64,000 nt of DNA from Candidatus Woesearchaeota archaeon (GCA_964447315.1 CAYURQ010000003.1:10078-74077), one strand, 5' to 3'; positions 9 to 27,643 are shown, counted from the stretch's first letter. Made by a program: numbers and translations. Notes: generated by a model not told the origin, from the sequence alone.

Positions 9-2039
9 TTGATTAAACAAGAAAATGCTCTTTCTCATGATAAACTTGTTGGTGGTCATGAGGAGTTTTTTTCTAAAAGGTATAATGAGATTTTTTCTTT
101 TTTGTTTTTATTGAAAAAAGATCCTTTATCAGCACATGAAGAATTAAAAAAAATTATTATTGAAAATAAAATATTTTTAGAGAAATTAAGTTCAGATAAA
201 CAGGGAGACCAGAAAAATTATTTGAATTTCTTAGGAAAAATACTTAGTTTATTTGAAAAAACAAAAATTTATCGTGATTCTAGAAGATTTATTCAAGGAT
301 ATCAAAAAGGAAACAGGGATATTTATCATAATTTATTTCAACCAGATGTAATTCCTAATTTTACTTTTACTAGATTAGTTTCTGATTTACCAAGGGATGC
401 AGAGATTGTTGATCAATATGAGATAAATAATGGAGATTATGATGTTTCTCAAGTTACAATTCTTAAAACAGAAAATGATTCTAAATTATTATATCATTTA
501 ATTGCTCCTGAGAATTCTTTAAAAGAAGACCATAGTATTTTAATTAATCTTGCAAGGACAGTTTTAATTGATCACCAGCCAAAAGCAGAAGAATTTACTG
601 ATACTGAAAGAATAAGACAGGTTTTTTTTAATATTTCAAGAGATTTATTAAGAGACTTAAGTGAAACAAAAGGGATTAAATTAAATTATAATGATTTAAA
701 TAAACTTGCTACTATTCTTGTTAGACATACTATTGGATTTGGATTAATAGAAGTTTTATTGCAAGATAAAAATTTACAAGATATTTCTTTGAATGCCCCT
801 ATACCTATGACTCCTGTTTTTGTTAGACATCAAAAACATGATGAGTGCACTTCTAATATTTTGCCAAGTCAAGAAGATGCTGATTCATGGGCTGCTAAAT
901 TTAGAATGCTTTCTGGAAGGCCTTTAGATGAAGCAAATCCTATTTTAGACACTCAATTAGAGATTGGTAATTTACGTTCAAGAATTGCGATTATTCAAGA
1001 ACCTTTAAGCCCAGATGGTTTAGCTTATTCTATTAGAAGACATAGAGAAAGTCCTTGGACTTTGCCTTTATTTATTCAAAATAAAATGATTAATCCTTTT
1101 GCAGCTGGACTTTTAAGTTTTTTAATTGATGGTTCTAGAACAATGCTTGTTGCTGGAACAAGAAGTTCAGGTAAGACCTCTCTTTTAGGAAGTTTAATGC
1201 TTGAAATTATTCCTAAGTTTAGAATAATTGTTATTGAGGATTCTTTGGAATTGCCAGTGGAATCAATACGTAAATTAAAATATAATATTTTGAGGATGAA
1301 AGTTAGAAGTTCTTTACTTAAAACCTCAACAGAGGTTTCTGCTGATGATGGTATTAGAGCTAGTTTAAGATTGGGTGATAGTTGTTTAATCCTTGGAGAA
1401 GTAAGAAGTGTTGAGGCAAAAGCTCTTTATGAGGCAATGAGGGTTGGGGCTTTGGCAAATGTAGTAGCAGGTACAATTCATGGTGCTAGCCCTTATGGGA
1501 TTTTTGATAGGGTTGTTAATGATTTAGGTGTTCCAGCAACTTCTTTTAAAGCAACTGATATTATTTCTGTTGCAAATCCAATTAAATCTCCTGATGGATT
1601 GCATTCTTGGAGAAGATTGGTTCAAATATCTGAAGTAAGAAAACATTGGAAAGAAGATCCTTTACTTGAAAAAGGATTTGTTGATTTAATGAAATATAAT
1701 GTTGAAAAAGATGAACTTGAAGTAAGTGATGATTTAATGAATGGAGACTCAGAAATATTAAAAGGTATTGCTTCTAATGTAAAAGGATGGGCTGGAAATT
1801 GGGACGCTATTTATGATAATATTTTGCTTAGGGCTAAGATAAAAAAAGAACTTTTAGATACTGCTATTAAAACAAAGGATATGGATTTAATTGAAGCTGA
1901 ATTTAATACTTTATCTAATCATGCTTTTCATGAAATTTCAGATGAAGTAATTGAAGAAGTTGGGCTTCCTTTATCTAAGAGGGTTTTTCCTGAATGGCAG
2001 AAATGGTTGAACAAAGAAATAAAGAAAAGGAATATTTAA
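9..2039 (+). CDS. Type IV pilus/archaellum-family secretion ATPase (GspE/VirB11/FlaI-PilB superfamily); true 5' end may lie upstream of the window
   Basis: 676-aa ORF with no in-frame stop between the window edge and the TTG at 9. Walker A 'VAGTRSSGKTSLLGS', Walker B-like 'FRIIVIEDSLEL', and 'ILGEVRSVEAKALYEAMRVGA' typical of secretion NTPases. Heads a pilin/peptidase locus. Confidence 0.8.
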   Translation: MIKQENALSHDKLVGGHEEFFSKRYNEIFSFLFLLKKDPLSAHEELKKIIIENKIFLEKLSSDKQGDQKNYLNFLGKILSLFEKTKIYRDSRRFIQGYQKGNRDIYHNLFQPDVIPNFTFTRLVSDLPRDAEIVDQYEINNGDYDVSQVTILKTENDSKLLYHLIAPENSLKEDHSILINLARTVLIDHQPKAEEFTDTERIRQVFFNISRDLLRDLSETKGIKLNYNDLNKLATILVRHTIGFGLIEVLLQDKNLQDISLNAPIPMTPVFVRHQKHDECTSNILPSQEDADSWAAKFRMLSGRPLDEANPILDTQLEIGNLRSRIAIIQEPLSPDGLAYSIRRHRESPWTLPLFIQNKMINPFAAGLLSFLIDGSRTMLVAGTRSSGKTSLLGSLMLEIIPKFRIIVIEDSLELPVESIRKLKYNILRMKVRSSLLKTSTEVSADDGIRASLRLGDSCLILGEVRSVEAKALYEAMRVGALANVVAGTIHGASPYGIFDRVVNDLGVPATSFKATDIISVANPIKSPDGLHSWRRLVQISEVRKHWKEDPLLEKGFVDLMKYNVEKDELEVSDDLMNGDSEILKGIASNVKGWAGNWDAIYDNILLRAKIKKELLDTAIKTKDMDLIEAEFNTLSNHAFHEISDEVIEEVGLPLSKRVFPEWQKWLNKEIKKRNI

Positions 2040-2042: not shown

Positions 2043-2681
2043 TTGATTTTTCTTTATTTTTTAATGTATCTTGGAATTGACTTTGAAGTATTTTTAGTTT
2101 CATATGCTAGTTTTGGTGGAAGTGGTGTTGGAAATATTCTTGCAAAAATGGAGCAAGCAGGAGTTTTTCAATACTTGTTACCTGGATTGATTATCTTTGC
2201 ATTGGTTTATACTGTTTTGAGTTTTATTAAAGTATTTAGAAATAGGGCAATAATTTCTGTTATTGCTTTAACAACAAGTCTTTTAGCTTTGCAATTTGAT
2301 CTTGTTGGATTGTGTTTTGCAGAAATATTTCCTAGACTTGGAATTGCTCTTTCAATTTTATTGATAATTATTATTTTAGGAGGAGTTTTCTTTGAACCTA
2401 AAGATGGAGAAAGCAAATGGATTAAAGTTGTTTTAACAATAATTACTATTGGAGCTATCATTTTTGTTTTGATTGGTTCTTTGGAGTGTATGGGATTTAG
2501 AGGAATAGGTTTTTTAGGAGGAGGATTTACTGTTTTTTATAATTTGAATTGGGCAAGAATTATAGGAATACTTTTAGTTGTAGGGGTATTTTTCTGGATA
2601 ATAAAAACTACAAATTCCAGAGAAGGTGGTTCTGGAAGAAGTGGAGGGTGGCATAGACCTTCAAGAGCAGTTAGCCATTAA
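2043..2681 (+). CDS. Polytopic membrane protein of unknown function, immediately downstream of the secretion ATPase
   Basis: 212-aa ORF starting 3 nt after the ATPase stop. Several long hydrophobic segments and a Gly/Arg-rich C-terminus. Start uncertain (TTG at 2043 or ATG at 2064). Confidence 0.5.
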   Translation: MIFLYFLMYLGIDFEVFLVSYASFGGSGVGNILAKMEQAGVFQYLLPGLIIFALVYTVLSFIKVFRNRAIISVIALTTSLLALQFDLVGLCFAEIFPRLGIALSILLIIIILGGVFFEPKDGESKWIKVVLTIITIGAIIFVLIGSLECMGFRGIGFLGGGFTVFYNLNWARIIGILLVVGVFFWIIKTTNSREGGSGRSGGWHRPSRAVSH

Positions 2682-10104: not shown

Positions 10105-10315
10105 ATATTTTATTTTTAGTTAAATTTTTAAATTCAATTTAATTATTTTTTGTAAGTTAAAATGACATCTAATTCTGAAAGACGTAATAAGAAGAAAGAT
10201 AAGCAAAAAGAGAAAAAAAAGAATCCTTATAAGAGAGGTGGAAGAAATAGAGTCAATAAAAAAGTAAAAAATTAAATTCAAACAAGTTTATAAATTATAA
10301 TTTCTAATTTTTATT

Positions 10316-11167
10316 ATGAAAGAGGTTTTTTTAATTATTCTTGGAATTGCATGGATTGGATTTGCAATGCTTCAGGATTTAAAAAAAAGAGAGATTGCAA
10401 ATTGGTTGAATATTTCTTTGGTTGTTTTTGCATTATTTTTTAGATTTTTTTATAGTTTGTTTTTTGGAATTGATAATGGAGAGGGATTTAGTTTTTTAAT
10501 TCAAGGATTAATTGGTTTTGGGGTATTCTTTTTAATTGGAAATTTGTTTTACTATTCAAGGCTTTTTGCAGGAGGAGACGCAAACTTAATGGTTGCTTTG
10601 GGAGCTGTTTTACCATTTTCAATGAATTTAACTGAAAATATTAATTTAGGGGTTTTATTTTTGCTTTTATTCTTGCTTTGGGGTGCTATTTATGGAATCT
10701 CTTGGAGTATTTATTTAGGATTTAAAAATAAAAAGAATTTCAAGAAAGAATTTCAAGAAAGATTTAATGAAAATAAAAAAGTTGTTTATTTATCTTTAGT
10801 ATTAGGAATAATCTTCTTATTTTTTGGAATATTTGAAATTTCTTTTATTGCTCTTGGGATATTTATTTTTATTTTACCTTATTTTTGGTTTTTAGCTAAA
10901 TCAATTGATGAGGCTTCAATGGTTAAACTTGTAAATCCAATTAAGTTAACTGTTGGTGATTGGCTTTACAAAGATGTTGTTGTTAAAGGAAAAACAATAA
11001 AAGCTACTTGGGATGGATTAAATGAAAAAGATATTTCTTTATTGAAAAAGAATAAGAAAAAAGTTAAAGTAAGATATGGCATTCCTTATGCACCTGTATT
11101 TTTCTTGAGTTTTTTAACTTTAGTTGTTTTATGGTTGATGGGGTTTAAAGTATTTTTTATTTTTTAA
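10316..11167 (+). CDS. Prepilin/preflagellin peptidase, A24 family (PibD/FlaK/EppA-like)
   Basis: Two aspartyl motifs in the expected TM context: 'AMLQDLKKREIANW' and 'FAGGDANLMVALGA' (GxGD-type). Polytopic. Terminates the pilin operon. Confidence 0.8.
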   Translation: MKEVFLIILGIAWIGFAMLQDLKKREIANWLNISLVVFALFFRFFYSLFFGIDNGEGFSFLIQGLIGFGVFFLIGNLFYYSRLFAGGDANLMVALGAVLPFSMNLTENINLGVLFLLLFLLWGAIYGISWSIYLGFKNKKNFKKEFQERFNENKKVVYLSLVLGIIFLFFGIFEISFIALGIFIFILPYFWFLAKSIDEASMVKLVNPIKLTVGDWLYKDVVVKGKTIKATWDGLNEKDISLLKKNKKKVKVRYGIPYAPVFFLSFLTLVVLWLMGFKVFFIF

Positions 11168-11402: not shown

Positions 11403-12077
11403 TTAGGGGATTCTTTTTGGAATAATTATTTTTTTACTTTCTTTTGAGTCTACATATATTTTTTCTTTTTTTACTTCTGGTTTTTTTTCTGGTTTTTTTT
11501 CTGTTTTATTTAATACCTCTAATAAAGCTTGTAATTCTTCTGGTTTTCCTTGAGATCTTTGAGATTCTAATGTTTCTCCTTGATACTGTGGAAGAACATT
11601 AATTATTATTTCTCCTAATATACTAGAAGGTTTTACCATTACTTCTTTTGGATTTAATTTTTTTGCTAGAATTATTGAAATTTTTTCAGCTAATTCTAAA
11701 ACTTGTTTTGGTATATTAGAAGGTTCATAAACAGGCTTTTTAGGAATTATTATTGTATGCCCCATTGATATTGGATTTATTTCTAAAACAGCTATTGACT
11801 CTGAATTTTCATTTATTTTATAACTTGGTAAATTGCCACTAACTATTTGTCTAAACGGGGTTTCTTGTTCAATTTCTGAATTATTAGAATTGTTTAATTG
11901 TTCTGGCTCTGCAACTTGAACTATATTATTTATTTTTGCAAATTCAATAAATTCTGAATTACTCATTGAATTTATTTTTTCAATTAAAGGTTGTTTTTTA
12001 TCTTCTGGAAAATTAGAATTAATTTGATTTAGTAATTGTTGCTTTAATTCATTTATTTTTTCTTCTTGAATTTCCAT
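11403..12077 (-). CDS. HIT-fold-like protein with N-terminal extension; histidine triad not conserved
   Basis: 'PFRQIVSGNLPSYKINENSESIAVLEINPISMGHTIIIPKKP' matches the N-terminal half of HIT proteins. The position of HxHxHxx reads 'GEIIINVLPQY'. Confidence 0.5.
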   Translation of the reverse strand: MEIQEEKINELKQQLLNQINSNFPEDKKQPLIEKINSMSNSEFIEFAKINNIVQVAEPEQLNNSNNSEIEQETPFRQIVSGNLPSYKINENSESIAVLEINPISMGHTIIIPKKPVYEPSNIPKQVLELAEKISIILAKKLNPKEVMVKPSSILGEIIINVLPQYQGETLESQRSQGKPEELQALLEVLNKTEKKPEKKPEVKKEKIYVDSKESKKIIIPKRIP

Positions 12078-12115: not shown

Positions 12116-12388
12116 TTAAGCAACTTTTCTCATATCAATTAGTTGAGCTGATTGAACCTTTGGAATTTTAGAAAATTCTTCTTCTAAATGCTCTGTTTCT
12201 TTGTCATCTGGGTAGAAAAAGAATACAATTAGCGCTTTTAATCCAAAAGCAACTGGCTCAATAGCGTATTCCTTATTTTTTCCTCCAAAATCTTCAACTA
12301 TTTTTCTTGCAGATTCTTCAATTTCTTTTAAATCTACTTCTGGGGATTCAGGCATTAATTTATATTTTGCTCCATTTATTCCTGTCAT
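12116..12388 (-). CDS. ef1b: Translation elongation factor aEF-1 beta
   Basis: The internal ATG of the track ORF gives a 90-aa protein. 'KLMPESPEVDLKEIEE...IEPVAFGLKALIVFF...VQSAQLIDMRKV' is the archaeal EF-1beta pattern. Confidence 0.8.
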   Translation of the reverse strand: MTGINGAKYKLMPESPEVDLKEIEESARKIVEDFGGKNKEYAIEPVAFGLKALIVFFFYPDDKETEHLEEEFSKIPKVQSAQLIDMRKVA

Positions 12389-12475
12389 GTAATGAAAGTA
12401 CTTTAGTTGATTTATAAATTTTTGTATTATTAGTGTATCATAATTCTTATAAACTTGTTTTATTTTTTGTTTTTT

Positions 12476-13402
12476 ATGGTTAATGAAAATTATGAAAAGA
12501 TTGTTGAAAAAATTGCTCAAACAGCAGGAGTTGAAAAAGAAGAGGTTTTAAGAAAAATAGAAGCTAAAAGAGCTAAGTTATCTGGATTGATAAGTTATGA
12601 GGGTGCTGCACAAGTTGTTGCAGCTGAATTAGGGGTTAATTTTGATAATGAAAAACTTAAGATTGATGAATTGCTTCCTGGAATGAAAAAAGTAAATACA
12701 TCTGGACAAATAATTAATTTAGGTCCTGTTAGAACATTTAAAACTCAAAAAGGAGATGAAGGGAAGGTTTGTAATTTTTTTGTTGCTGATGATACTTCTA
12801 ATATTAAAATAGTTTTATGGGATACAAATCATATTTCTTTAATTGAAAAAGGAAATTTAAAGGAAGGAAGTGTTATTGAAATTTTTAATGCTTCTATGAG
12901 AGATAATGAATTGCATTTAGGTAGTTTTTCTGAATTAAAACCTAGTTCAGAAAGTTTTCCAAATTTGGTAACTGAAAAAGTTGTTAAAGAAAAATCAATT
13001 TCTGATTTCAAGATTGGGGATAGTGCTAGTGTTAGGGCTTTTGTTGTTCAGGGGTTTGAACCTAGATTTTTTGAAGTGAATAAAGAAACAGGAAGAAAAC
13101 CTACTGAGGATGAAAGAGCAAAAGGAGTTCCTCTTGAAAAACGGGCTTTAATAAATATTGTATTGGATGATGGAACAGAAACAATGAGAGCTGTTCTTTT
13201 TCATGAATCTTTGAAGGATATTGGATTAACTGCTTTAGATAATATTGAGCAATTAATTGTTCAAAGAGAAGAACTTTTAGGAAAGGAATTTGTTTTTTCT
13301 GGAAATGTGCGTAGAAATAATTTTTTTAATAATGAAGAATTTATAATTGAAAGTGCAAAACCAGTGGATTTGGATAGTTTAATTGCTAAGTTTGAAAAAT
13401 AA
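12476..13402 (+). CDS. rpa: Replication protein A-like ssDNA-binding protein (OB folds)
   Basis: 'AKLSGLISYEGAAQVVAAELGV' N-terminal helical domain, followed by two OB-like segments ('KVCNFFVADDTSNIKIVLWD', 'INIVLDDGTETMRAVLF'). Confidence 0.65.
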   Translation: MVNENYEKIVEKIAQTAGVEKEEVLRKIEAKRAKLSGLISYEGAAQVVAAELGVNFDNEKLKIDELLPGMKKVNTSGQIINLGPVRTFKTQKGDEGKVCNFFVADDTSNIKIVLWDTNHISLIEKGNLKEGSVIEIFNASMRDNELHLGSFSELKPSSESFPNLVTEKVVKEKSISDFKIGDSASVRAFVVQGFEPRFFEVNKETGRKPTEDERAKGVPLEKRALINIVLDDGTETMRAVLFHESLKDIGLTALDNIEQLIVQREELLGKEFVFSGNVRRNNFFNNEEFIIESAKPVDLDSLIAKFEK

Positions 13403-13465: not shown

Positions 13466-16400
13466 ATGCGTAAAGAGAGGTTGATACTAGCTAGTCTAGT
13501 GATTGTATTAATTGTATTTGTAGGTTTAGCTTTTGCTTTACCTAACTTGCAGTTTTTATTTCCAAGTGTTCCAGATAATGGATATTCTTTAAAAGATTCT
13601 GTTACAATAAATGTAAGTATTAATAATACTGTTCCTAATTCTGTCTGGCTTGATTGGAACAATAGTTTAATGGTTTATTTGCCATTTGATTATTATAATG
13701 ATACTGGTGTTTTTGATAATTCGAGTTATGGAATGTTTGGAGAGTTTAAAGGGAATTTAAGTATTAACAATATAAGTTCTGGTATAAGAGGAAATAGTTT
13801 GGATTTTGATGGGGAGAGTGATTATTTTTTAATTAAGAATTCAGAATTGGTTAATACTGAAAACTATACTTTTAGTTTTTGGATTAAAACAGAGTCTTCT
13901 TCATTAGGAGATCAAGTAATTATTACTAATGGAAATGATAATGGGGAAGGAGTTATAGATAGTGTAGGTATAAGGCAAGGAAAAATAGGGTGGAATTATG
14001 TTAATGCAGGATCTTATAAAGAGGGAGCTACATCTACAGTAAATGATGGAGCTTGGCACCATGTTGTTATATCTGTAAATTCTACTAGAAATTCTTCTTT
14101 GTTTATTGATGGAGTTCAAGACATAATAACTACTACTTCTTTTTATAGGTCAGATTCTACAGGGAATTCTTATATTGGATGTAGGATTGCTTCAGAGTAT
14201 TTTTTTAATGGTTCAATTGATGAAGTTATGGTTTTTAATAGAAGTTTGAGTACAGAAGAAATTAGGGATTTATATAATCATACAGCTTCTTACTATAATA
14301 ATACTCAATCAAATCTTCAAGAAACTTTTTACAATTACAGTGTTTATGCAATGAGTTTAAATGGAGAATTAGAAAAAACTTCAAGGAGTTTTTGGGTTGA
14401 CTTAACTGGTGTTGGAACTGATTTTGTTTGGCCAACTCCTGTGGATTTAGGAAATCATCCTAATCGAGCAGCTTCAATAAATGTTAGTATTGGAAGTTTT
14501 AATCAAAATCATTCTGTTTTTGTTGATTTAAATAATGATTTACTTGGGTATTGGAGTTTTGATTATTACAACGAAACAGGGGTTTTTGATAATTCAAGTT
14601 ATGATAATTTTGGAGAATTTAATGAAAATTTAAGTTTGGATAATTTAACAGCAGGAGCTAGAGGAAGAGGTTTGGATTTTGATGCTTCTTTTGGTTATGT
14701 TGGTTTAAATGAAGAAGTAGTTATTACTGGAAATTCAACAATTTCTTTTTGGGCTAAAAAATCTGACTGGAGTGATAATAGAGTTGTTCTTGGAAATTCA
14801 GGAACTTCTATGTATAGTTTTGTTTACTTTAATTCAGTTAATAGACTGTATATTGAATCAGATTCAAGTGGAGATAACGCGTACGCAGTTTTAGATAATG
14901 TAGATAATGATATGCACCATTATATTATTGTTCTTGATAATTATAATGTTCAAATTTATCAAGATGGAGTTGCTTTATCTATGGGGGATGGAGATATTTC
15001 AGATGATGTTACTTTAAATAGAATTGGTGCTGCATCAGGCTCTTATAATTTCAATGGAACAATTGATGAAGTAATGATATTTAATAGAACTTTAAATAAT
15101 GATGAAATTCTTTATTTATATAATTCAACTGATAATTATTTTCAAGAAGCATATTCTGAATTAGAAGAAGGAAATAATTCTTTGAATGTTTATGCAATTG
15201 ATATTGCAGGAAACTTAGAAAAAATTTCAAGGAGTTTTGTTTTTGATTCAGTTGTTCCAGGAATTCAATTTCTTTACCCTACTCCAGGAAATCAACTACA
15301 AACTTCTGAATTAAACCATACAATAAATGTTACTTTAACAAATTCAACTAATTCTAGTCTTTGGATTGATTGGGAAAATGATTTGGTTGGATATTGGAGT
15401 TTTGATTATGCTAATGAAAATGGTATTTATGATAACTCTAGTAATAGTAATTTTGCTACTTTTAATGGAAATTTAGGAATAGATAATTTAAGTGTGGGTG
15501 TTAGAGGAAATGCTTTGGATTTTTATGGAGATGCCCCTTCTTATCTTTGGACTAGTAGAGTAAATTTTCACACTTATCCAGAAGGATGGAGTACTTTTGC
15601 ATGGGTGAAATATTATGATAATGGTGGTCTTTTAGCTAGTATATTTGGAGGAAATATGCTTTCTGTTAGAACTTCTGATGGTGCTTTAAGAATTTATGAT
15701 GGAATGGGTTATAAATATTCATCAGGAACTTTGTCAGAAGGAACTTGGATTCATGTTGGGGCAACTTGTGATAATGAAACTAATATTTTAAATTATTATA
15801 TTAATGGAGTTAATGATTCAGAACATCATAACTTTGATTGTGATTATTCATTATCAATTCGTTTTTATTCTATTGGAAATTATTATGTTTCTTCTTCTCC
15901 TTGGAATGGTTCAATTGATGAAGCAATTATTTTTAATAGGAGTTTAACTTTAGAAGATGTCCAAGCTCTTTATAATGGAACTGAAAGTTATCTTTCTTTT
16001 TCAAAAAATGATTTAATTGAAGGAACTTATAATTATGATATTTATGCAACTGATTTAGGAGGTAATATGGAAATTCTTTCTAGAAATTTAACAATTAATT
16101 CAACAACTTCTGAGATTGGTTTTGAAAAACCAACCCCTATTGATAATGTTTATTTTAATAATGAAAGTGCTTTAATTAATGTGAGCATTACAAACCCTAC
16201 AAATACTTCTGTTTTCATTGATTGGAATAAAAGTTTGATTGGATATTATAGTTTTGATTATTATAATTCAACAGGAGTTTTTGATAATTCAAGTTATGAT
16301 AATTTTGCTGGTTTTGGAGGTAATTTGGGTTTAGATAATTTAACAGGAGGAAGAAGTGGAAGTGCATTTGAATTTGATGGTGTTGGAGATTATATTCAAA

Positions 16401-17473
16401 CTCCAATTATTCCGGGAAATATGACTCAAGGAACAATTTCTATGTGGGTTTATCAAGAGAATCTTGGAGATTTAAATACTTTAATGGGTTCTAGACTTGG
16501 TGGTTCTACTCAAATAAAAATGGGTATTACAAGTAATAATTTTTATTTTTGGGTGGGTTCTAGTTCTGAAAATGTTGCTAGTATTTTAACTGAGGATTCT
16601 TGGCATCATGTTGTTTTAACTTGGAATGAAACCAATACTTTAGGTTATGTTAATTTAATCAATAGTGCTCAAGGAGATTCAAATGTTTCTAATCTTCCTG
16701 AAATTTCTAGTTTAGCTATGTCTATTGGTGCATTTAAAAGAACGAGTTCTTATGAAACATATTCAAAAGGAAAAATAGATGAGGTTTTAATCTTCAATAG
16801 AAGTTTAAGTTATGATGAAATTGCTTATTTGTATAATAATTCAAATCCCTACTTTAATTATCAAACACCTACTTTGAGCGAGGGAAATAATTATAGTTTT
16901 TCTATTTTTTCTATTGATGTAAGAGGAAATTTAAAAAAATTAGCAAGAAGCTTTTTACTTGATTTAGTTTCTCCAGGATTATCTTGGGTTTGGCCAACTC
17001 CTGATGATGATTTATATTCTAGAGATTCAACCCCTGTAATAAATGCAAGTTTAGCTAATAATACTGATACAAGTGTTTGGTTTGATTGGAATAATACTTT
17101 AGTTGGTTATTGGAGTATGGATTATTATAATTCAACAGGAGTTTTTGATAATTCAAGTTATGGAAGGTTTGCTACTTTTGCAGGGAACTTAACAAAGGAC
17201 AATATTACTGGGGGAATTAGGGGGGGTGCCCTTAAATTTGATGGAAAGGATAGTTATCTTAGATTTTCTAGAATTAATATTTCTACTTTTGCAGAGGGTT
17301 GGTCTGCCTTTGCTTGGGTAAAACATTATGGGGTTTCAGGCCAGAATGAAGCTATTTTTGGAGGATATTTTTTGCAGATTAATAGTGGGGATTATCGAGT
17401 ACAATCTTATGATGGTAGCGGATATAAATATTCAAATGTAAATATTTCAAAAGATATCTGGGCCCATGTTTGA
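13466..17473 (+). CDS. Giant surface protein, N-terminal part: signal/TM anchor plus LamG (concanavalin A-like lectin) repeat modules; ends at an in-frame TGA
   Basis: N-terminal hydrophobic 'LILASLVIVLIVFVGLAFALP'. The 'IDEVM[IV]FNRSL..EEI..LYN' LamG C-terminal strand motif recurs. Very dense N-x-S/T sequons. Confidence 0.8.
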   Translation: MRKERLILASLVIVLIVFVGLAFALPNLQFLFPSVPDNGYSLKDSVTINVSINNTVPNSVWLDWNNSLMVYLPFDYYNDTGVFDNSSYGMFGEFKGNLSINNISSGIRGNSLDFDGESDYFLIKNSELVNTENYTFSFWIKTESSSLGDQVIITNGNDNGEGVIDSVGIRQGKIGWNYVNAGSYKEGATSTVNDGAWHHVVISVNSTRNSSLFIDGVQDIITTTSFYRSDSTGNSYIGCRIASEYFFNGSIDEVMVFNRSLSTEEIRDLYNHTASYYNNTQSNLQETFYNYSVYAMSLNGELEKTSRSFWVDLTGVGTDFVWPTPVDLGNHPNRAASINVSIGSFNQNHSVFVDLNNDLLGYWSFDYYNETGVFDNSSYDNFGEFNENLSLDNLTAGARGRGLDFDASFGYVGLNEEVVITGNSTISFWAKKSDWSDNRVVLGNSGTSMYSFVYFNSVNRLYIESDSSGDNAYAVLDNVDNDMHHYIIVLDNYNVQIYQDGVALSMGDGDISDDVTLNRIGAASGSYNFNGTIDEVMIFNRTLNNDEILYLYNSTDNYFQEAYSELEEGNNSLNVYAIDIAGNLEKISRSFVFDSVVPGIQFLYPTPGNQLQTSELNHTINVTLTNSTNSSLWIDWENDLVGYWSFDYANENGIYDNSSNSNFATFNGNLGIDNLSVGVRGNALDFYGDAPSYLWTSRVNFHTYPEGWSTFAWVKYYDNGGLLASIFGGNMLSVRTSDGALRIYDGMGYKYSSGTLSEGTWIHVGATCDNETNILNYYINGVNDSEHHNFDCDYSLSIRFYSIGNYYVSSSPWNGSIDEAIIFNRSLTLEDVQALYNGTESYLSFSKNDLIEGTYNYDIYATDLGGNMEILSRNLTINSTTSEIGFEKPTPIDNVYFNNESALINVSITNPTNTSVFIDWNKSLIGYYSFDYYNSTGVFDNSSYDNFAGFGGNLGLDNLTGGRSGSAFEFDGVGDYIQTPIIPGNMTQGTISMWVYQENLGDLNTLMGSRLGGSTQIKMGITSNNFYFWVGSSSENVASILTEDSWHHVVLTWNETNTLGYVNLINSAQGDSNVSNLPEISSLAMSIGAFKRTSSYETYSKGKIDEVLIFNRSLSYDEIAYLYNNSNPYFNYQTPTLSEGNNYSFSIFSIDVRGNLKKLARSFLLDLVSPGLSWVWPTPDDDLYSRDSTPVINASLANNTDTSVWFDWNNTLVGYWSMDYYNSTGVFDNSSYGRFATFAGNLTKDNITGGIRGGALKFDGKDSYLRFSRINISTFAEGWSAFAWVKHYGVSGQNEAIFGGYFLQINSGDYRVQSYDGSGYKYSNVNISKDIWAHV
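17471..17473 (+). other. In-frame TGA interrupting the LamG giant ORF
   Basis: 13466 and 17636 are in the same frame. 'WAHV*AVCDNSTNILTYYINGVNDS' aligns with 'WIHVGATCDNETNILNYYINGVNDS' (GGG at 15758-15760). Confidence 0.9.
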
Positions 17474-17635
17474 GCTGTCTGTGATAATTCAACAAATATT
17501 TTAACTTATTATATTAATGGGGTAAATGATAGTTCTCAAAGTTATAATTGTGATTATTATAATGGAAATAGAATTATTTATATTGGATCTTATAATTCTA
17601 TTAGTTATTTTTTCAATGGAAGTATAGATGAAGTT

Positions 17636-20600
17636 ATGATTTTTAATAGAAGTTTAACTAATGAAGAAGTTAATAATTTATATAATGCAACAGATATTTA
17701 TTTTGAACAGCAAAAATCAAATCTTGAAGAAGGAACTTACAATTATTCAGTATATGCAAATGATAGAGGAGGAAATATGGAAATTCTTTCGAGAAATTTG
17801 ACTGTTGATAGAACTAATCCTGTTTTAATTTTTGTTGAACCAACTCCTGAAGAAGGAGGGGGAACAGATGGAAATTTACAATTTAATGTGAGTATTTTAG
17901 ATGAACAAGGATTTTCAATATGGTTTGAAGATAATAATTCTTTGCTTGGTTATTGGAGTTTTGATTATTATAATGAAACAGGAATTTTTGATAATTCAAG
18001 TTCTGAATTATTTGGAATGGCAGAATTTCAAAATGGAGTTGGATTGAATAATCTAACTAAAGGTAAAAGAGGATATGGTTTAGAGTTTGATGGAGATGAT
18101 GACTATCTTAATATTAGTGAGATAAGTGACTTTGATTTAGGAAATGAAACTAGCTTTACTGTTACTGCTTGGGCTTGGGATAAAGATCCTGGTGGAGGAA
18201 ATACTTGGATGAATATTGTTGAAAAGGGAAATTCTAGGGCAATTTATGGTTCAAGTGATTATGGAGCTGGTTTTGGATTTGGAAGATATAGTTCTACTGC
18301 AAATAGGTTTGCTTTTGGAATAAGTGATGGAAATAATGGTGGTTATTTTTCTTCTAATACTCTTTCATCTGGATATCATTTTTTAACAATGGTGGTTGAT
18401 AGAAATTCTGATTTAATGTATGGTTATGTTGATGGGGTTTTAGCAGATAGTTTAGATATTTCTTCTTATGGAGAAATTTCAAGTCCTGGAGAGCCTTTGA
18501 GAATTGGTTATGGTAATTTTAATTGGAATGGTTCAGTAGATGAAGTTATGATTTTTAACAGAAGTTTAACATTACAAGAAATCCAGGATTTATACAATGC
18601 AACAAGCTCTCAGTTTTTTGAAAGAACATATTCTAATGTGGATGCGGGTTATCATAATTATTCTGTAGGAGTTGTTGATAGAGCAGGAAACTTTGTAAGG
18701 TATTATAGGGGATTTGATGTTGATGATACTTTGCCTGAATATGAAATTGTTGACCCTAGTCCAGGAAATGCAACTTATACTGGAGATTTTGTCATAAATG
18801 TAAGTGTTAGTGAAGAACATTTAAACAATGTTACTTTTGATTGGAATGGAACAAATTATAGTTTGAATATAACAGATGATTATGCAAGAAATACCATCCA
18901 ATACACAAACATTTCAATTAATGCTACTAGAGTTGATAATTCAACAAATCTTTGGGAGGTCTTATTTGAAAATATTTATCTTGGAATAGGCCAAAGTTAT
19001 TGGTATAGAATGTTCTTTAAAGACAAGGGGGGTAATCAAAACTCAACCTCTCTTAGAGTTATTTATGGTAATAACCCCCCTGTTTTTAAGTTTGTAAATC
19101 AATTTCCTAATTTAAGTATAGAAGTTGATCCAAATATTACAATTAATATTACAACTAATGTTACTGATTCTGATTCTGATATTAGTATTGTTATTCTTCA
19201 ATGGAAAAAATGGGGAGAGAGTTATTCAAATATTACTATGGTAAATTATTCTGGAACAGAAAAATCTCAGCTTTTATGGATGAACTTTACTCCAACTCAA
19301 GAAGGAATTTATAATTATAGAATATTTGCAAATGATTCATATGGGGTTGAAAATTATTCTTCAGAATATAATGTTTCTGTTTATTGGGATTGTTCTTGGA
19401 CTGTTAATTCCAGTTTTGATGCTTTAGCAGGTTATAATGAAAATAAAAAAGTTGGAGTTTTAATTATTAATAATACTGGAGATAGTGAATATGCAACAAG
19501 TAGTTGTAGTTTAAACTTTAGGACTACATATAATTTAGTTGAAGGAAAAGTTTATTTTAATAATTATTACTTTAAAGATCAAACTTTTTTAGGAGTTGGA
19601 GCAGGGCAAACAGAAAGTATTTTAGTTAATTTTAGTTATGGTTCTGAAATAGCTCAAGATAATTTAATTATAACAACAACAGAGATAGGAGGAATATCAA
19701 ACAATAATACAATTAATACTACCTCTACATTAATAACTCTTAGGGATGGTCCTTATTTATATAATGAAATTACAACCTATCCTAGTAGTGTTTATTTAAT
19801 ATCTGACACTTTTATTTTAGATGGATATTTAAGAAATTTGATGGGTAGTGTAATTCCAAATGCAACAAATACTGCATATAATGTAAGTTCTTATTGGAGT
19901 TTGCCTAGTGGTTTTTCAGGAAATGCTTCTACTTTGGAATATGAAAATATAAGTGATAATGTTGTTAGAAATAATATTAATGTAATTTCTTTTAGTGATT
20001 TAGCGAGCATGACTCCTGGTTCTAAAACATTTACATTGTATTCTACTGGAGTTAATAATACTTCAGGAACAATAAAAGATGCTTCTGGAAACAGTGTTAT
20101 TAGTGATAGTGTAAGTATTAATTTTTTATGTTACTCAGTAAGTGATGGTTTTTGTGTTGAAGAATGTGGGAATTCTCAGGATCCTGATTGTCCTATTGAA
20201 ACAAGTGAGGTTGTTGTTGAAGTAAGTGGAGGAGGTGGTGGCGGAAGTTCTGGAGTAGGAAATACTGGTATTAGAGAAATTTCAGAAGAGAGATTTGAAC
20301 TTGTTATTGGAGAAAAACAAGAATTTCCTTTAATTATTGAAAATAAATTTACTGTTCCTAAAGAAGATATAATTATTGAAGCAAGCAATATTGATAGAAC
20401 AGAAATTAAAATAAATCCTTCAAAAATATCAAGGATTGATCCTAAATCTGAAAGAGAAATAAAAGTTATTTTATCAAGTAAAAAATATTTAACTCAAGGA
20501 ACTTATGATATTATTTTTACTATAAGCGGAGTTGTTAATGATAATGGAAAAAAGAGGAGCTTTACTGAAAAGAAAACAATGCAATTATATTTAATTGAAA

Positions 20601-21712
20601 TTCCAAGAGGGGAAGCAGAGTCTTTGATTAATGAAAGTATTAAAATAATTGAAAAAATGAAACAAAGTAATTTTTCAACTAAAGATGTGCAGGAATATCT
20701 CAATGAAATGAATTCCAGTTTAAATATTTTGGATTTTGGAGGCGTTGAAGAAAATTATCAGCAATTAAATGAATTATATGAAGTTGCTGAAAATTCAAAT
20801 AAATTAATTGAAGAACTTGGATTAAGCATTTCTAATTCAGAATATAAAGGTATTGAAGTTATTGAAGCAAAGAAAACTTTTTTAGTTGCTAAGAAGGCAT
20901 TTCAAAGAGGAGATTATCATATGGCTTATCAAAAAGTAAAAGAAGCTCAATTAACATATGCATTAGAAACCAAAGGAAAGTTTAATATTTTAAGATATGT
21001 TAAAAATCATCCATTTAATTCATTGATGTTTGTTTGGATATTTTTTACAATTTTCTTGGCTATTTTTATTTCTTCTAAATATGTTATTTATAAAAATAAA
21101 ATTAGAAATTTAAATTCAGAAGAAATATTGCTTTTAGATTTAATGAAAGTTGTTCAAAAACAATGTTTTGAGGAAAATAAACTTTCAATGGGACAATACG
21201 GAGAAGCAGTAGCACAATATGAAAATAAGTTAAGCAAGGCTGTTCAGAGAAGAGTTAATTATGAATCTAGGCTTGCAAATTTATTTAATATTAGAGGAAC
21301 AAAAAAAGCATTGAATTTAGAAAGAAAGAGACTTATTGAGTTAATTAAAGATATTCAAGAGGATTATATGCTTAAGGGGAAACTTGAGACTAGAATTTAT
21401 GAAGGTATGTTAAAAAGCTACTCTACTAGATTAACTGAAGTTGAAGAGGGCCTTGTATTTTTTGAGGCTCGTAAAGCACTTAGAGGAAAAGGATTTTTTA
21501 GTGCTTTATTTATTCAAGGAAATAAACAAGATAAAATAAATAAAGAAAAAATAAAAAGCGAAAAAGATATTATAACACAAAAAGAAAATAAACCTAAAAA
21601 TTCTTTTAATAAAAAGAAAAAACTAGAAAAAAGAGATATAAGAAAATTAAAAAAAAAAGCAAAACAAGAATATAAAAAAAGACTAAAACAAAAAAAAAAA
21701 CAAATTAAATAA
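17636..21712 (+). CDS. Giant surface protein, C-terminal part: last LamG modules, Ig-like region, poly-Gly linker, helical stalk, TM anchor, coiled-coil and poly-Lys tail
   Basis: The frame is open from 17474 (54 codons before the first ATG) and continues the interrupted LamG module. 'SGGGGGGSSG' near 20229. TM 'LMFVWIFFTIFLAIFISS' near 21022-21085. K-rich end. Confidence 0.8.
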   Translation: MIFNRSLTNEEVNNLYNATDIYFEQQKSNLEEGTYNYSVYANDRGGNMEILSRNLTVDRTNPVLIFVEPTPEEGGGTDGNLQFNVSILDEQGFSIWFEDNNSLLGYWSFDYYNETGIFDNSSSELFGMAEFQNGVGLNNLTKGKRGYGLEFDGDDDYLNISEISDFDLGNETSFTVTAWAWDKDPGGGNTWMNIVEKGNSRAIYGSSDYGAGFGFGRYSSTANRFAFGISDGNNGGYFSSNTLSSGYHFLTMVVDRNSDLMYGYVDGVLADSLDISSYGEISSPGEPLRIGYGNFNWNGSVDEVMIFNRSLTLQEIQDLYNATSSQFFERTYSNVDAGYHNYSVGVVDRAGNFVRYYRGFDVDDTLPEYEIVDPSPGNATYTGDFVINVSVSEEHLNNVTFDWNGTNYSLNITDDYARNTIQYTNISINATRVDNSTNLWEVLFENIYLGIGQSYWYRMFFKDKGGNQNSTSLRVIYGNNPPVFKFVNQFPNLSIEVDPNITINITTNVTDSDSDISIVILQWKKWGESYSNITMVNYSGTEKSQLLWMNFTPTQEGIYNYRIFANDSYGVENYSSEYNVSVYWDCSWTVNSSFDALAGYNENKKVGVLIINNTGDSEYATSSCSLNFRTTYNLVEGKVYFNNYYFKDQTFLGVGAGQTESILVNFSYGSEIAQDNLIITTTEIGGISNNNTINTTSTLITLRDGPYLYNEITTYPSSVYLISDTFILDGYLRNLMGSVIPNATNTAYNVSSYWSLPSGFSGNASTLEYENISDNVVRNNINVISFSDLASMTPGSKTFTLYSTGVNNTSGTIKDASGNSVISDSVSINFLCYSVSDGFCVEECGNSQDPDCPIETSEVVVEVSGGGGGGSSGVGNTGIREISEERFELVIGEKQEFPLIIENKFTVPKEDIIIEASNIDRTEIKINPSKISRIDPKSEREIKVILSSKKYLTQGTYDIIFTISGVVNDNGKKRSFTEKKTMQLYLIEIPRGEAESLINESIKIIEKMKQSNFSTKDVQEYLNEMNSSLNILDFGGVEENYQQLNELYEVAENSNKLIEELGLSISNSEYKGIEVIEAKKTFLVAKKAFQRGDYHMAYQKVKEAQLTYALETKGKFNILRYVKNHPFNSLMFVWIFFTIFLAIFISSKYVIYKNKIRNLNSEEILLLDLMKVVQKQCFEENKLSMGQYGEAVAQYENKLSKAVQRRVNYESRLANLFNIRGTKKALNLERKRLIELIKDIQEDYMLKGKLETRIYEGMLKSYSTRLTEVEEGLVFFEARKALRGKGFFSALFIQGNKQDKINKEKIKSEKDIITQKENKPKNSFNKKKKLEKRDIRKLKKKAKQEYKKRLKQKKKQIK

Positions 21713-25678: not shown

Positions 25679-27643
25679 ATGAAAAAAAAGAAGGAGATTA
25701 TTTTTGTATTTTTATTTTTAATATTGTTAAATAGTTTTTTTATTTTTGCAGCACCGAGTGCTCCAATAAATTTGGTTTTAGAAGGAATTTCAAGTGCAGA
25801 TTATGATGAAGGTTACTTTAGTGTTAATTGGAGTTCTGGTGATGGAGATAGTGAAACAGAGTATAGGATTTATATTTTTCAAGATGAATCTTTTTTAATG
25901 GTTGCTCCTAATACCAGTGAAACAGGATATCAAGTTAATGGTCCTTCTGATGCAAAATATACTTTTATTGTTGAAGCATTGAATGGAACTTCTGGAAGTG
26001 AAAGTAGGGCAAATTCTTCTGGAAATGTTTCAATAAATATTGATTCTATTATTCCTTCTTTATTGATTGTTAATTCTTCTCATAATATTTATGTTTTAAA
26101 TTCAAATACTCTTTCTTTAAGTTTATATATTTCAGATGAAAATTCTGGAATTTCAAATAGTTTATGTTTAGTTAGTGTTGGGGGTTCTGAAACTATAATA
26201 GTTCCTTCTTTTGGATGGTGTAATTCTAGTAGCATTTCTTTATCTGAATCTAGTGAAGGAAACCAAAGTGTAATTATCTCAGTAAATGATAGTGCTGGAA
26301 ATATAGTTTCAGATGAGAGTAATTTTGTTTATATTGATTCAACTGGCCCTTCAATTACTTTTACATGTAGTCCTTCTAGTGTTTATTTAAATGAAAATGT
26401 TGTATGTAATTGTAGTGCTGTTGATGTTGGAGTTGGAGTTAATGAATCTAGTTTTGAGTTTTCTTTAAATCCAGATACTTCTGAACTTGGGACTTTTACA
26501 AGAACTTGCACTGTTAGTGATTTGCTGGGAAATCAAAATAATAAAAATTTTGATTATACTGTTGCAGCTGTTGGAGCTCCATTAGATATTATTCTTCCTG
26601 ATACAGATACAGATAGCAATGTTTCTTGGATTTATACTTATGAAATAAATCAAACAGAATTTTTAGATGGATATACTCAAAATCTTGCTGCTAAAAGAAG
26701 AATAAAAGCACCTATTGGTTCTGAAGAACATTCTATTGGAGTTTTAGAATTAAATGAAACCCATGCAAAAATAGAAATTGCAAGCACTCCTATTGAAAAA
26801 TTATTAGGTATTGGAGATTCAATTAAAATAGATATCTTGGATGATGGTTTTTATGATATTTATGTTATTTTAAATTCAATTATAAATAATAATACTGCTA
26901 ATTTAACTGTTAAAAATATTAGAGAAGAGATATCTCCTACTTTTATTCAGAATTTAGATTCTGAAAATGAAAGTATTGATTCTTCTGAAAATCAAACAGG
27001 ATTAAATAATACTAATTCAGATGATAAATTAGGACTTTTTTCAAAAATAAATAAAACTAGGTTTTTTATTTTTTTAGGAGCTGGTTTACTTGCTATTTTT
27101 TTATTTGTATTTATTTATTATATTTTTAAAAATAAAAATAAGATTAAAATAAAACCTATTAAGCAAAAAAATTCAGAGGTTGAATCTTCTTCTCAAGAGT
27201 ATGATACTTCTCAAGATTTAGAGGATATTCAAGAAAATAGCAATAAATCAGAGGAAATAAATGATTTAAAAAAATCTGATTCTGTTGATAATGAAAAAAT
27301 AAAAGACTCTACTGATTCTTTTTCAGAAAATAATAATATTGACAATAAAATTGATGATTCTGCAAGTTCTGAAGATTTAAAAGAAGAATCAGGAAGTATT
27401 GCATCTATTATTAAATCTCATCCAGATACTAAATCTAAGCCAAAATCTCAATCAGATGCTCTTTCAGGTACTTTAAAGAGTTCTAAACCTGTAAAAACTG
27501 CTCAATCTCAACCAGTTCCTAAAACAAAAATACCTCAGCAAGTTAAAAAATCCAAAAATACCAAAAATTTGCCTTTGTATAAACCTCCTCAAAAATCTGT
27601 TAAAAAGAATAATCAAAAAAATAATCAAAAAAAATATATTTAG
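25679..27643 (+). CDS. Surface protein: signal peptide, FN3/Ig-like domains, TM anchor, acidic Ser-rich then basic cytoplasmic tail
   Basis: 'IIFVFLFLILLNSFFIFAAPSAP' signal. 'FSVNWSSGDGDSETEYRIYIF' FN3-like. TM 'FFIFLGAGLLAIFLFVFIYYIF'. Low-complexity tail. Confidence 0.7.
   Translation: MKKKKEIIFVFLFLILLNSFFIFAAPSAPINLVLEGISSADYDEGYFSVNWSSGDGDSETEYRIYIFQDESFLMVAPNTSETGYQVNGPSDAKYTFIVEALNGTSGSESRANSSGNVSINIDSIIPSLLIVNSSHNIYVLNSNTLSLSLYISDENSGISNSLCLVSVGGSETIIVPSFGWCNSSSISLSESSEGNQSVIISVNDSAGNIVSDESNFVYIDSTGPSITFTCSPSSVYLNENVVCNCSAVDVGVGVNESSFEFSLNPDTSELGTFTRTCTVSDLLGNQNNKNFDYTVAAVGAPLDIILPDTDTDSNVSWIYTYEINQTEFLDGYTQNLAAKRRIKAPIGSEEHSIGVLELNETHAKIEIASTPIEKLLGIGDSIKIDILDDGFYDIYVILNSIINNNTANLTVKNIREEISPTFIQNLDSENESIDSSENQTGLNNTNSDDKLGLFSKINKTRFFIFLGAGLLAIFLFVFIYYIFKNKNKIKIKPIKQKNSEVESSSQEYDTSQDLEDIQENSNKSEEINDLKKSDSVDNEKIKDSTDSFSENNNIDNKIDDSASSEDLKEESGSIASIIKSHPDTKSKPKSQSDALSGTLKSSKPVKTAQSQPVPKTKIPQQVKKSKNTKNLPLYKPPQKSVKKNNQKNNQKKYI

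What the first reader, a model, noticed from the sequence alone, without database searches (positions are those of the whole stretch)
17400..17640. A single in-frame TGA splits a ~2,748-codon LamG-repeat surface protein exactly where a paralogous repeat has Gly
ORFs 13466-17473 and 17636-21712 are in the same frame. The 54 codons between the TGA (17471-17473) and the first ATG are also open, and they continue the interrupted LamG module. 'WAHV*AVCDNSTNILTYYINGVNDS' aligns with module 3 'WIHVGATCDNETNILNYYINGVNDS', where the codon is GGG (15758-15760). The interruption is therefore one substitution, GGN to TGA. In an AT-rich genome, 1,412 further open codons would not persist by chance. So the change is very recent, or an assembly or population variant, or the TGA is read through. 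If it terminates, the product is a 1,335-aa lectin-repeat fragment without its C-terminal TM anchor, and the anchored half has no signal peptide. That would act as an on/off or secreted/anchored switch for the main adhesin.
Basis: partly seen in the sequence, partly recalled or inferred. Interest (0 to 1): 0.72.

Follow-up and report, generated by a model that had tools for sequence, protein, structure and literature searches.

The report
Giant archaeal adhesin gene, one stop
A very large surface-lectin gene of a small symbiotic-type (DPANN) archaeon is cut in two by one TGA stop codon, and the evidence points to an ordinary, very recent point mutation or base-call variant rather than a programmed switch.

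Summary
Window 13466-21712 is one 2,748-codon frame with a single in-frame TGA at 17471-17473, in the middle of the fifth of six LamG (Laminin_G_3) modules. The host is a ~28% GC DPANN-type archaeon.

- **Intact relatives:** a syntenic ortholog (P0001, 3,842 aa) and a further homolog (P0002) are uninterrupted.
- **What the stop cuts off:** the part after the stop includes the best-conserved region of the protein (59% identity to P0001, against about 38% for the LamG repeats).
- **No recoding:** TGA is a normal terminator here. Seven other genes in the window end in TGA, and this is the only in-frame TGA in about 19,000 codons.
- **No bypass signals:** there is no RNA structure after the stop, no room for a SECIS element, no nearby restart codon, no simple-sequence tract and no invertible element.
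- **Age:** if the downstream half were decaying neutrally, the lack of a second stop limits its age to about 1.2% divergence or less.
- **Ancestral codon:** Gly (GGA) is likely but not certain. The ortholog has Ser at this site, and the family mostly has Val or Ala.

Best reading: a recent nonsense allele, or a base-call or strain variant. The proposed secreted/anchored switch is not supported. Only read-level data can separate these readings. Interest is low.

The parts
13466..17473 (+). Upstream ORF of the giant LamG-repeat surface protein. It has 1,335 codons, carries modules 1-4 and the first half of module 5, and ends at the in-frame TGA.
   Evidence: Pfam Laminin_G_3 E=2.2e-73 with 4 complete stretches.
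13466..13564 (+). N-terminal hydrophobic signal or anchor segment (residues 1-33, MRKERLILASLVIVLIVFVGLAFALPNLQFLFP).
   Evidence: Hydropathy scan. A TATA-like ttttatatat box lies about 30 nt upstream of the ATG.
15758..15760 (+). GGG (Gly) codon of paralogous module 3, which aligns with the TGA.
   Evidence: Modules 3 and 5 are 51% identical in protein and 75% identical over 124 nt of DNA.
17240..17674 (+). LamG (Laminin_G_3) domain of module 5, residues 1259-1403. The TGA interrupts it near its middle.
   Evidence: With the stop read as Gly, this module matches the Pfam Laminin_G_3 profile at positions 1-151 of 151, E=1.4e-19. The stop is at module residue 192, within the 115-259 match.
17471..17473 (+). 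The in-frame TGA (residue 1336), in the context GTT TGA GCT.
17474..21712 (+). Downstream open frame of 1,412 codons plus a TAA stop. It holds the rest of module 5, module 6, Ig-like and unique domains, a transmembrane segment and a charged tail.
17636..17638 (+). First in-frame start codon after the TGA. It is the conserved Met of the repeat motif IDEVMIFNR, not a recognisable gene start.
   Evidence: The same motif occurs in all six modules. There is no TATA-like box or GGAGG-type Shine-Dalgarno motif upstream, unlike other genes in the window.
18746..21709 (+). C-terminal non-repeat region (residues 1761-2748). It is the most conserved part of the protein and lies entirely after the stop.
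   Evidence: 59% identity over 925 aa to syntenic P0001 and 41% over 853 aa to P0002. The LamG-repeat part is about 38% identical to P0001.
21011..21088 (+). C-terminal transmembrane anchor (residues 2516-2541, PFNSLMFVWIFFTIFLAIFISSKYVI), followed by a Lys-rich charged tail of about 207 aa.
   Evidence: Hydropathy scan and translation.

Best explanation
The locus is a single gene for a giant, heavily N-glycosylated, membrane-anchored LamG-lectin repeat surface protein of a DPANN-type archaeon. It sits next to a type IV pilus-like gene cluster. By analogy with other DPANN LamG proteins, it is presumably an adhesin for a host or substrate surface. In the sequenced population, one base substitution has made a sense codon into TGA in the middle of LamG module 5. 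The most likely change is GGA (Gly) to TGA, a G-to-T change in line with the AT-biased composition. TGA is an ordinary terminator in this organism. Translation therefore stops at residue 1335 and gives a fragment that ends in half a beta-sandwich and lacks the conserved C-terminal region and anchor. The downstream 1,412 codons are not separately expressed. They are still open only because the mutation is very young, at or below about 1% neutral divergence. In short, this is a recent loss-of-function allele (a young pseudogene or strain variant) of a fast-evolving, probably dispensable surface protein. It is not a programmed device.

Shown directly: one gene, one stop, intact relatives, TGA is a stop here, and no bypass signals. 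Inferred: the mutation is real rather than a base-call error, the ancestral codon, and loss of function.
For: - **One gene, one stop:** 2,748 codons with a single TGA. The read-through module 5 is a complete Laminin_G_3 domain.
- **Intact syntenic ortholog:** L001 has the same gene order (HIT, EF-1beta, DUF2240/OB-fold, giant LamG, membrane protein, KaiC-like, RadA, NDK, eIF2alpha, DHH) with an uninterrupted 3,842-aa protein. Neighbouring proteins are 81%, 60% and 50% identical.
- **The stop removes the conserved part:** the C-terminal region after the stop is the best-conserved part of the protein (59% to P0001, 41% to P0002).
- **TGA is a normal stop:** 7 of the 52 other ORFs tabulated end in TGA, including ATGA stop-start overlaps at 44023 and 49964. 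This is the only in-frame TGA in about 19,000 codons.
- **No bypass signals:** downstream RNA folding gives z = -0.18. There is no start codon for 54 codons and no promoter or SD motif before ATG 17636. Rfam finds only four tRNAs.
- **Misassembly unlikely:** repeat modules are at most about 83% identical over 94 nt.
- **Good local sequence quality:** no other interrupted gene was seen, and the housekeeping genes give full or near-full-length Pfam matches.
- **The hit gene is the fastest evolving:** it is 43% identical to its ortholog against 50-81% for its neighbours, which is where a tolerated nonsense allele is most expected.
- **Age bound:** the stop-mutation target of the downstream half is 249 per unit substitutions per site. 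No second stop therefore implies d <= 0.012 at 95%.
Against: - No reads and no near-identical genome were available. The window's proteins are not in the contig index, and the genome, metagenome and viral scans found only relatives of about 30% identity or nothing. A real mutation therefore cannot be told apart from a consensus or base-call error.
- Complete integrity of 1,412 downstream codons is also what continued selection would give, for example through read-through.
- Loss of the most conserved region of a large conserved protein might be expected to be selected against.
Confidence: 0.55

Rival explanations
1. Base-call or consensus artefact, or a minority strain variant. The organism's gene is really intact (GGA or another sense codon at 17471-17473). 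The T comes from a sequencing or polishing error, or from a low-frequency allele picked up by the assembler.
For: - The lesion is a single substitution in an otherwise perfect 8.2-kb frame.
- The downstream part is the most conserved region of the protein and shows no decay.
- All detected relatives are intact.
- G-to-T is a known artefact class of oxidative damage (general knowledge, not tested here).
Against: - No other interrupted gene was seen among the other ORFs of the window, so the local error rate looks low.
- A random error would fall in this gene only about 14% of the time, which is its share of the codons. A tolerated real nonsense allele is expected preferentially in this fast-evolving surface gene.
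- There are no long near-identical repeats that could cause a chimeric consensus.
Confidence: 0.3
2. Functional stop-codon read-through. A fraction of ribosomes decode the UGA with a near-cognate tRNA (Trp, Cys or Arg). The cell then makes both a secreted 1,335-aa lectin fragment and the full-length anchored adhesin.
For: - The downstream frame is fully open and conserved.
- UGA is generally the leakiest stop codon (general knowledge).
- The window carries a tRNA-Arg(UCG) that could in principle misread UGA.
Against: - The stop is not conserved. The syntenic ortholog and P0002 have sense codons throughout.
- There is no stable structure downstream (z = -0.18).
- The stop lies in the middle of a domain, so the short product would end in half a LamG fold.
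- In archaea, read-through has been established only for Sec and Pyl (PMC8037382, PMC8211752).
Confidence: 0.05
3. A functional split gene. The upstream ORF gives a secreted lectin fragment. The downstream part is translated separately, by reinitiation or from an internal promoter at ATG 17636, as an anchored protein.
For: Both halves are long open frames. Split protein genes are known in some DPANN archaea such as Nanoarchaeum (general knowledge).
Against: - The first start codon is 162 nt after the stop and is just the conserved Met of the IDEVMIFNR repeat motif.
- It has no TATA-like box or SD motif upstream, unlike bona fide genes in the window.
- The downstream product would start inside the last strands of a LamG domain and would have no signal peptide.
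- Relatives are unsplit.
Confidence: 0.04
4. Codon reassignment or selenocysteine. TGA is read as Gly (code 25), Trp (code 4) or Sec at this site.
For: The TGA aligns with Gly in the closest paralogous module, which recalls code 25.
Against: - The gene content is archaeal: DUF2240, RadA, aEF-1beta, GINS51, ribosomal L10/P1 and S3Ae.
- Seven other genes terminate at TGA, and there is one in-frame TGA against 1,297 Gly codons.
- None of the 4 tRNAs in the window has a UCA anticodon.
- Only 34 nt separate the gene's end from the next gene, so there is no room for an archaeal 3'-UTR SECIS. Rfam gives no SECIS hit.
- Aligned positions in the closest homologs are Gly or Ser, and family-wide mostly Val or Ala, with Cys in only 8 of 335.
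Confidence: 0.01

Closest known systems
Giant LamG / ConA-like lectin surface proteins of DPANN archaea. Examples are the expanded LamG-like proteins of the ARMAN-related Mia14, some of them linked to type IV pili loci (PMC5498576), and the secreted LamG/PKD proteins of Ca. Nanohalobium (PMC7443923). The SPEARE proteins of Ca. Nanohaloarchaeum are a looser comparison.
   Same: - Multiple Laminin_G_3 domains.
- Very large size, an N-terminal signal or anchor, and many N-x-S/T sequons (113).
- Homologs in Woesearchaeota, Pacearchaeota and Nanoarchaeia MAGs.
- Located beside a type IV pilus-like cluster: T2SSE ATPase, prepilin peptidase and small ORFs.
   Different: - This copy carries an in-frame TGA.
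- It has a specific conserved C-terminal module (unique region, transmembrane segment, charged tail), shared at 59% and 41% identity with P0001 and P0002. That module matches no Pfam family above threshold.
- No protease or nuclease domains of the SPEARE type were found.
- No adhesion function has been shown for this protein.
Ordinary young pseudogenes and nonsense alleles of surface-protein genes in prokaryotic populations.
   Same: A single disabling substitution, intact orthologs, no further lesions, and a fast-evolving and probably dispensable gene.
   Different: Nothing distinguishes this case, apart from the large size of the undecayed downstream frame.
Programmed recoding in archaea: Sec at UGA, Pyl at UAG, and -1 frameshifting in Saccharolobus fucA1 (PMC8211752, PMC8037382).
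   Same: An annotated 'interrupted' gene whose two parts together encode one homolog-length protein.
   Different: - There is no SECIS element, no conserved recoding site in orthologs and no stimulatory structure.
- The aligned residues in the closest homologs are Gly or Ser, not Cys.
Phase-variable (contingency) adhesin genes of bacteria.
   Same: The product is a surface adhesin, and its expression would be switched off by a premature stop.
   Different: There is no simple-sequence repeat, no invertible segment and no near-identical silent donor cassette at or near the site. A point substitution is not a reversible high-frequency switch.

Membership tests
DPANN giant LamG-repeat surface proteins | Several Laminin_G_3 / ConA-like lectin domains | tested here: met
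   Pfam PF13385, E=2.2e-73 (4 stretches upstream of the stop) and E=4e-24 (2 stretches downstream). Six modules were found from the IDEVMIFNR anchors.
DPANN giant LamG-repeat surface proteins | Extracellular and anchored topology: an N-terminal signal or transmembrane segment and a C-terminal transmembrane segment | tested here: met
   The hydropathy scan finds only two hydrophobic segments, residues 1-33 and 2516-2541. No dedicated signal-peptide predictor was available.
DPANN giant LamG-repeat surface proteins | Homologs in DPANN genomes, with a syntenic ortholog | tested here: met
   There are 102 hits, with named ones from Woesearchaeota, Pacearchaeota and Nanoarchaeia. L001 is syntenic.
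DPANN giant LamG-repeat surface proteins | Mediates attachment to a host or to glycans | not testable with these tools
   This function is only inferred in the literature (PMC5498576, PMC7443923).
Young pseudogene / nonsense allele | A disabling lesion relative to intact orthologs | tested here: met
   TGA at residue 1336. P0001 and P0002 are uninterrupted.
Young pseudogene / nonsense allele | The lesion is real in the DNA of the organism, not an artefact | not testable with these tools
   No reads and no near-identical contigs were available.
Young pseudogene / nonsense allele | No mechanism that bypasses the lesion | tested here: inconclusive
   No structure, restart signal or SECIS element was found. 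Low-level near-cognate read-through cannot be excluded from sequence alone.
Reassigned genetic code (TGA = Gly in code 25, or Trp in code 4) | TGA is not used as a terminator, and in-frame TGA is frequent | tested here: not met
   Seven other genes end in TGA. There is one in-frame TGA in about 19,000 codons.
Selenoprotein gene (UGA = Sec, archaeal type) | A SECIS hairpin in the untranslated region | tested here: not met
   The gap to the next gene is 34 nt. Rfam at gathering thresholds finds only tRNAs.
Selenoprotein gene (UGA = Sec, archaeal type) | Cys (or Sec) at the aligned position in homologs | tested here: not met
   The subtype homologs have Gly or Ser. Family-wide the residue is Val or Ala in 70% of modules and Cys in 8 of 335.
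Programmed stop-codon read-through | The stop codon is conserved in orthologs | tested here: not met
   P0001 has Ser (TCT) in the best-matching module and no internal stop. P0002 is also intact.
Programmed stop-codon read-through | A stimulatory downstream RNA structure or context | tested here: not met
   Folding 17465-17600 gives -20.3 kcal/mol against a shuffle mean of -19.7, z = -0.18. No archaeal leaky context is defined, so the context criterion is inconclusive.
Phase-variable contingency locus | A hypermutable repeat tract or invertible DNA at the switch point | tested here: not met
   The sequence around the stop is CATGTTTGAGCTG, with no repeat tract. Repeats within the gene are old and diverged (at most about 83% over 94 nt), and the inverted repeats found are at chance level.

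The most novel reading that the evidence does not exclude
The UGA is partly read through by a near-cognate tRNA in this DPANN archaeon. One gene would then yield both a released lectin-repeat fragment and a full-length membrane-anchored adhesin. This would be a non-Sec, non-Pyl programmed read-through in Archaea, which has not been demonstrated so far.
Probability: 0.04. Interest if true: 0.7.

Novelty: already known. Interest (0 to 1): 0.14.

Why it matters
As it stands, this matters mainly for annotation. The two ORFs 13466..17473 and 17636..21712 should be annotated as one interrupted giant LamG adhesin gene, either as a pseudogene or as 'internal stop, verify'. They should not be treated as two proteins, nor as evidence of an alternative genetic code.

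If the allele is real, it is a small example of a DPANN archaeon losing a conserved, pilus-linked giant surface protein at strain level. That would be relevant to host-range variation.

It would be of general interest only if read-through were shown experimentally. In archaea, stop-codon read-through is established only for selenocysteine and pyrrolysine.

Tried and rejected
- **Genome-wide TGA recoding (code 25 or 4).** Rejected. Seven other genes end in TGA, there is a single in-frame TGA in about 19,000 codons, and the gene content is archaeal.
- **Selenocysteine.** Rejected. There is no room for a SECIS element, no Rfam hit, and the aligned residues in the closest homologs are Gly or Ser, not Cys.
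- **Other interrupted genes in the window as a sign of poor assembly or systematic recoding.** The only other same-frame pair (9..2039 | 2043..2681, split by TAA) is two unrelated genes, an ATPase and a membrane protein.
- **Same-frame pairs in related loci L002, L006 and L007.** These are ordinary adjacent genes.
- **Search for near-identical genomes or strains to read the allele at 17471.** This led nowhere. Exact-protein look-ups of four window proteins found nothing. The GTDB genome scan and the JGI metagenome scan returned only relatives of about 30% identity. The IMG/VR exact-pattern scan found nothing.
- **Recent duplication or gene conversion between modules 3 and 5, as a source of the stop or a way to repair it.** Rejected. 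The two modules are only 75% identical over 124 nt.
- **Diversity-generating retroelement or invertible element.** Pfam scans of most of the window's ORFs found no reverse transcriptase or recombinase. No template/variable repeat pair was found within the gene.
- **Read-through-stimulating RNA structure.** None was found.
The nearest ortholog is only 43% identical, so synonymous sites are saturated. Only the stop-target bound could be computed.


Full report
**1. Observation**

The window has about 28% GC. ORFs 13466..17473 (1,335 aa, ending in TGA) and 17636..21712 (1,358 aa) are in the same frame. Translating 13466-21712 gives 2,748 codons with one stop, TGA at 17471-17473, in the context GTT TGA GCT. 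The 54 codons between the TGA and ATG 17636 are open and contain no ATG, GTG or TTG.

At this base composition a random frame hits a stop at about 8.7% of codons. The chance that 1,412 codons stay open is therefore about 10^-56. This is the only place in the window where one stop codon splits a gene into two long same-frame ORFs. The other same-frame pair (9..2039 | 2043..2681) is an ATPase gene followed by a separate membrane-protein gene.

**2. The gene and its host**

*Host.* The window encodes archaeal housekeeping genes:
- a DUF2240/OB-fold RPA-like protein, aEF-1beta, RadA and a KaiC-like ATPase;
- NDK, eIF2alpha, a DHH/RecJ-like nuclease, SRP54 and FtsY;
- ribosomal proteins L1, L10, P1, S3Ae and S15, plus GINS51 and GatD.

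Named homologs of the giant protein come from Woesearchaeota, Pacearchaeota and Nanoarchaeia MAGs. The host is therefore a DPANN-type archaeon. Many genes have TTTATAAA- or TTTTTAAA-like boxes about 25-35 nt before the ATG, and others have GGAGG-like motifs.

*Protein.* The read-through product has these parts:
- an N-terminal hydrophobic segment (residues 1-33);
- six LamG modules of about 285 aa, each ending in the motif IDEVMIFNRSL;
- a non-repeat region of about 990 aa;
- a transmembrane segment (residues 2516-2541) and a Lys-rich tail of about 207 aa;
- 113 N-x-S/T sequons in total.

Upstream lies a type IV pilus-like cluster: a T2SSE ATPase, a GT4 glycosyltransferase, several small ORFs and an A24 prepilin peptidase. 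[quoted passage not shown]

**3. Relatives**

The best hit, P0001, is 3,842 aa, 43% identical, and covers 97% of the query. It sits on a JGI metagenome contig (locus L001) with the same gene order on both sides. It has no internal stop. Neighbouring proteins are 81% (RadA), 60% (RPA-like) and 50% (downstream membrane protein) identical.

The giant gene is therefore a true ortholog and the fastest-evolving gene of the block. P0001 has 10 LamG modules against 6 here.

Within the protein, conservation is uneven. The LamG repeats are about 38% identical to P0001. The C-terminal non-repeat region (residues 1761-2748) lies entirely after the stop and is 59% identical to P0001 and 41% identical to P0002. 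The single-gene architecture, with LamG repeats fused to this anchor module, is therefore ancestral. The stop cuts off the best-conserved part.

**4. Position of the stop**

Read through, module 5 matches the whole Laminin_G_3 profile (positions 1-151 of 151). The match spans module residues 115-259, and the stop is at module residue 192. The stop therefore falls in the middle of a beta-sandwich, directly after the W-x-H-V strand. A terminated product would end in half a domain.

**5. Which codon was there before?**

- Module 3 is the closest paralog (51% aa identity) and has GGG (Gly) at this site.
- A module of the same narrow subtype in P0005 also has Gly. The best-matching module of the syntenic ortholog has Ser, codon TCT.
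- Modules 1 and 4 of the window have Val.
- Over 335 W-x-H-[VILY] sites in the 102 homologs, the next residue is Val 40%, Ala 30%, Leu 8% and Gly 2%.

GGA is the dominant Gly codon here, 820 of 1,297, and G-to-T fits an AT-rich genome. GGA to TGA is therefore the most likely path. TCA to TGA is also a single step and is not excluded. The statement 'exactly where a paralog has Gly' is true, but it does not reflect a conserved Gly.

**6. Is TGA decoded specially?**

No evidence supports this.
- Seven of the 52 other ORFs tabulated end in TGA, two of them in ATGA stop-start overlaps.
- There is one in-frame TGA in about 19,000 codons.
- The four tRNAs in the window are Gln(UUG), Thr(UGU), Val(GAC) and Arg(UCG).
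- Rfam finds nothing else.
- The gene ends 34 nt before the next gene, which leaves no room for an archaeal 3'-UTR SECIS element.
- RNA folding of 17465-17600 is no more stable than shuffled sequence (z = -0.18).
- The stop is absent from the ortholog and from P0002.
- According to two papers on archaeal recoding (a review and a research article), read-through is established only for Sec and Pyl (PMC8211752, PMC8037382).

**7. Is the downstream half expressed separately?**

This is unlikely. The first start codon is 162 nt downstream and is the conserved Met of the repeat motif. No TATA-like box or Shine-Dalgarno motif precedes it. The product would begin inside a LamG domain and would have no signal peptide.

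**8. Is it a switch?**

There is no repeat tract at the site. There is no meaningful inverted repeat, and no near-identical donor sequence: modules are at most about 83% identical over 94 nt, and modules 3 and 5 are 75% identical over 124 nt. Pfam scans of most of the window's ORFs found no reverse transcriptase or recombinase. A point substitution is not a reversible high-frequency switch.

**9. Age**

Summing over the 1,412 downstream codons, the mutational target for new stops is 249 per unit of substitutions per site. Under neutral decay, the absence of a second stop implies d <= 0.012 at 95%, with a median near 0.003. Indels are not counted. The lesion is therefore very young, or not real, or the downstream part is still under selection.

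**10. Real mutation or artefact?**

No reads and no near-identical sequences could be found, so this cannot be decided here.

Two points mildly favour a real allele. First, no other interrupted gene was seen among the other ORFs of the window. Second, a random error would fall in this gene only about 14% of the time, whereas a tolerated nonsense allele is expected in the fastest-evolving, probably dispensable gene. Misassembly through the repeats is unlikely, because the repeats are too diverged.

My estimates:
- real recent nonsense allele: about 0.55;
- base-call error or minority variant: about 0.30;
- read-through: about 0.05;
- functional split gene: about 0.04;
- recoding or Sec: about 0.01.

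**11. Verdict**

The ancestral Gly is plausible. The functional 'on/off or secreted/anchored switch' has no support.

This is an ordinary interrupted gene in a known kind of DPANN surface protein. It should be annotated as one gene with an internal stop, pending read-level verification. Novelty: already known. Interest: low.

Noticed in passing
window 9-11167: A type IV pilus-like cluster lies directly upstream of the giant LamG gene. It contains a T2SSE/PilB-like ATPase (9-2039), a polytopic membrane protein (2043-2681), a GT4 glycosyltransferase on the minus strand (2683-4008) and a 742-aa protein with no Pfam match (4099-6327). These are followed by seven small ORFs with no Pfam match (6663-10104; possible pilins) and an A24 prepilin peptidase (10316-11167). 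L001 has a comparable run of small genes in the same place.
   Followed up: partly
window 48138-58498: A second giant ORF (49964-58498, 2,844 aa) has no Pfam match at all. It is preceded by a 609-aa ORF, also without a match, that overlaps it by ATGA. The giant ORF is intact, and its function is unknown.
   Followed up: partly
window 18746-21709; L001 10001-21529: The C-terminal non-repeat module of the giant protein comprises a unique region, a Cys-rich CxxxCGxSxDPDC motif, a Gly run, a transmembrane segment and a charged coiled-coil-like tail. It is much better conserved (59% and 41% identity to P0001 and P0002) than the LamG repeats (about 38%) and matches no Pfam family above threshold. 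The number of LamG modules differs between orthologs: 6 here and 10 in P0001.
   Followed up: partly
window 25679-29507: Three ORFs without Pfam matches (654, 411 and 179 aa) lie between NDK and eIF2alpha. The syntenic contig L001 has different genes there (LMWPc, UDG, Nop10, NUDIX). This is a local break in synteny, possibly an inserted island.
   Followed up: no
whole window: The sign of the GC skew follows the direction of transcription. It is positive where genes are on the + strand and negative at 30-32 kb, 34-38 kb and 40-42 kb, where genes are on the - strand. This indicates a strong excess of G over C on the coding strand rather than a replication signal.
   Followed up: no
window, regions upstream of many genes (for example 9784, 10316, 11403-12077 on the minus strand, 13466, 23817, 58508-58873 on the minus strand): TTTATAAA- or TTTTTAAA-like boxes lie about 25-35 nt upstream of many ATG start codons. 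This suggests archaeal TATA promoters with very short or absent leaders. Genes inside operons instead show GGAGG- or GAGGT-like motifs.
   Followed up: no
window 12116-12520 (minus strand) and 12455-13402 (plus strand): The mechanically listed ORFs for aEF-1beta and the RPA-like protein overlap head to head by 66 nt, and both start at TTG. The homologs in L001 are shorter (90 aa and 306 aa), and the RPA alignment starts at residue 13. The true starts are therefore probably internal.
   Followed up: no
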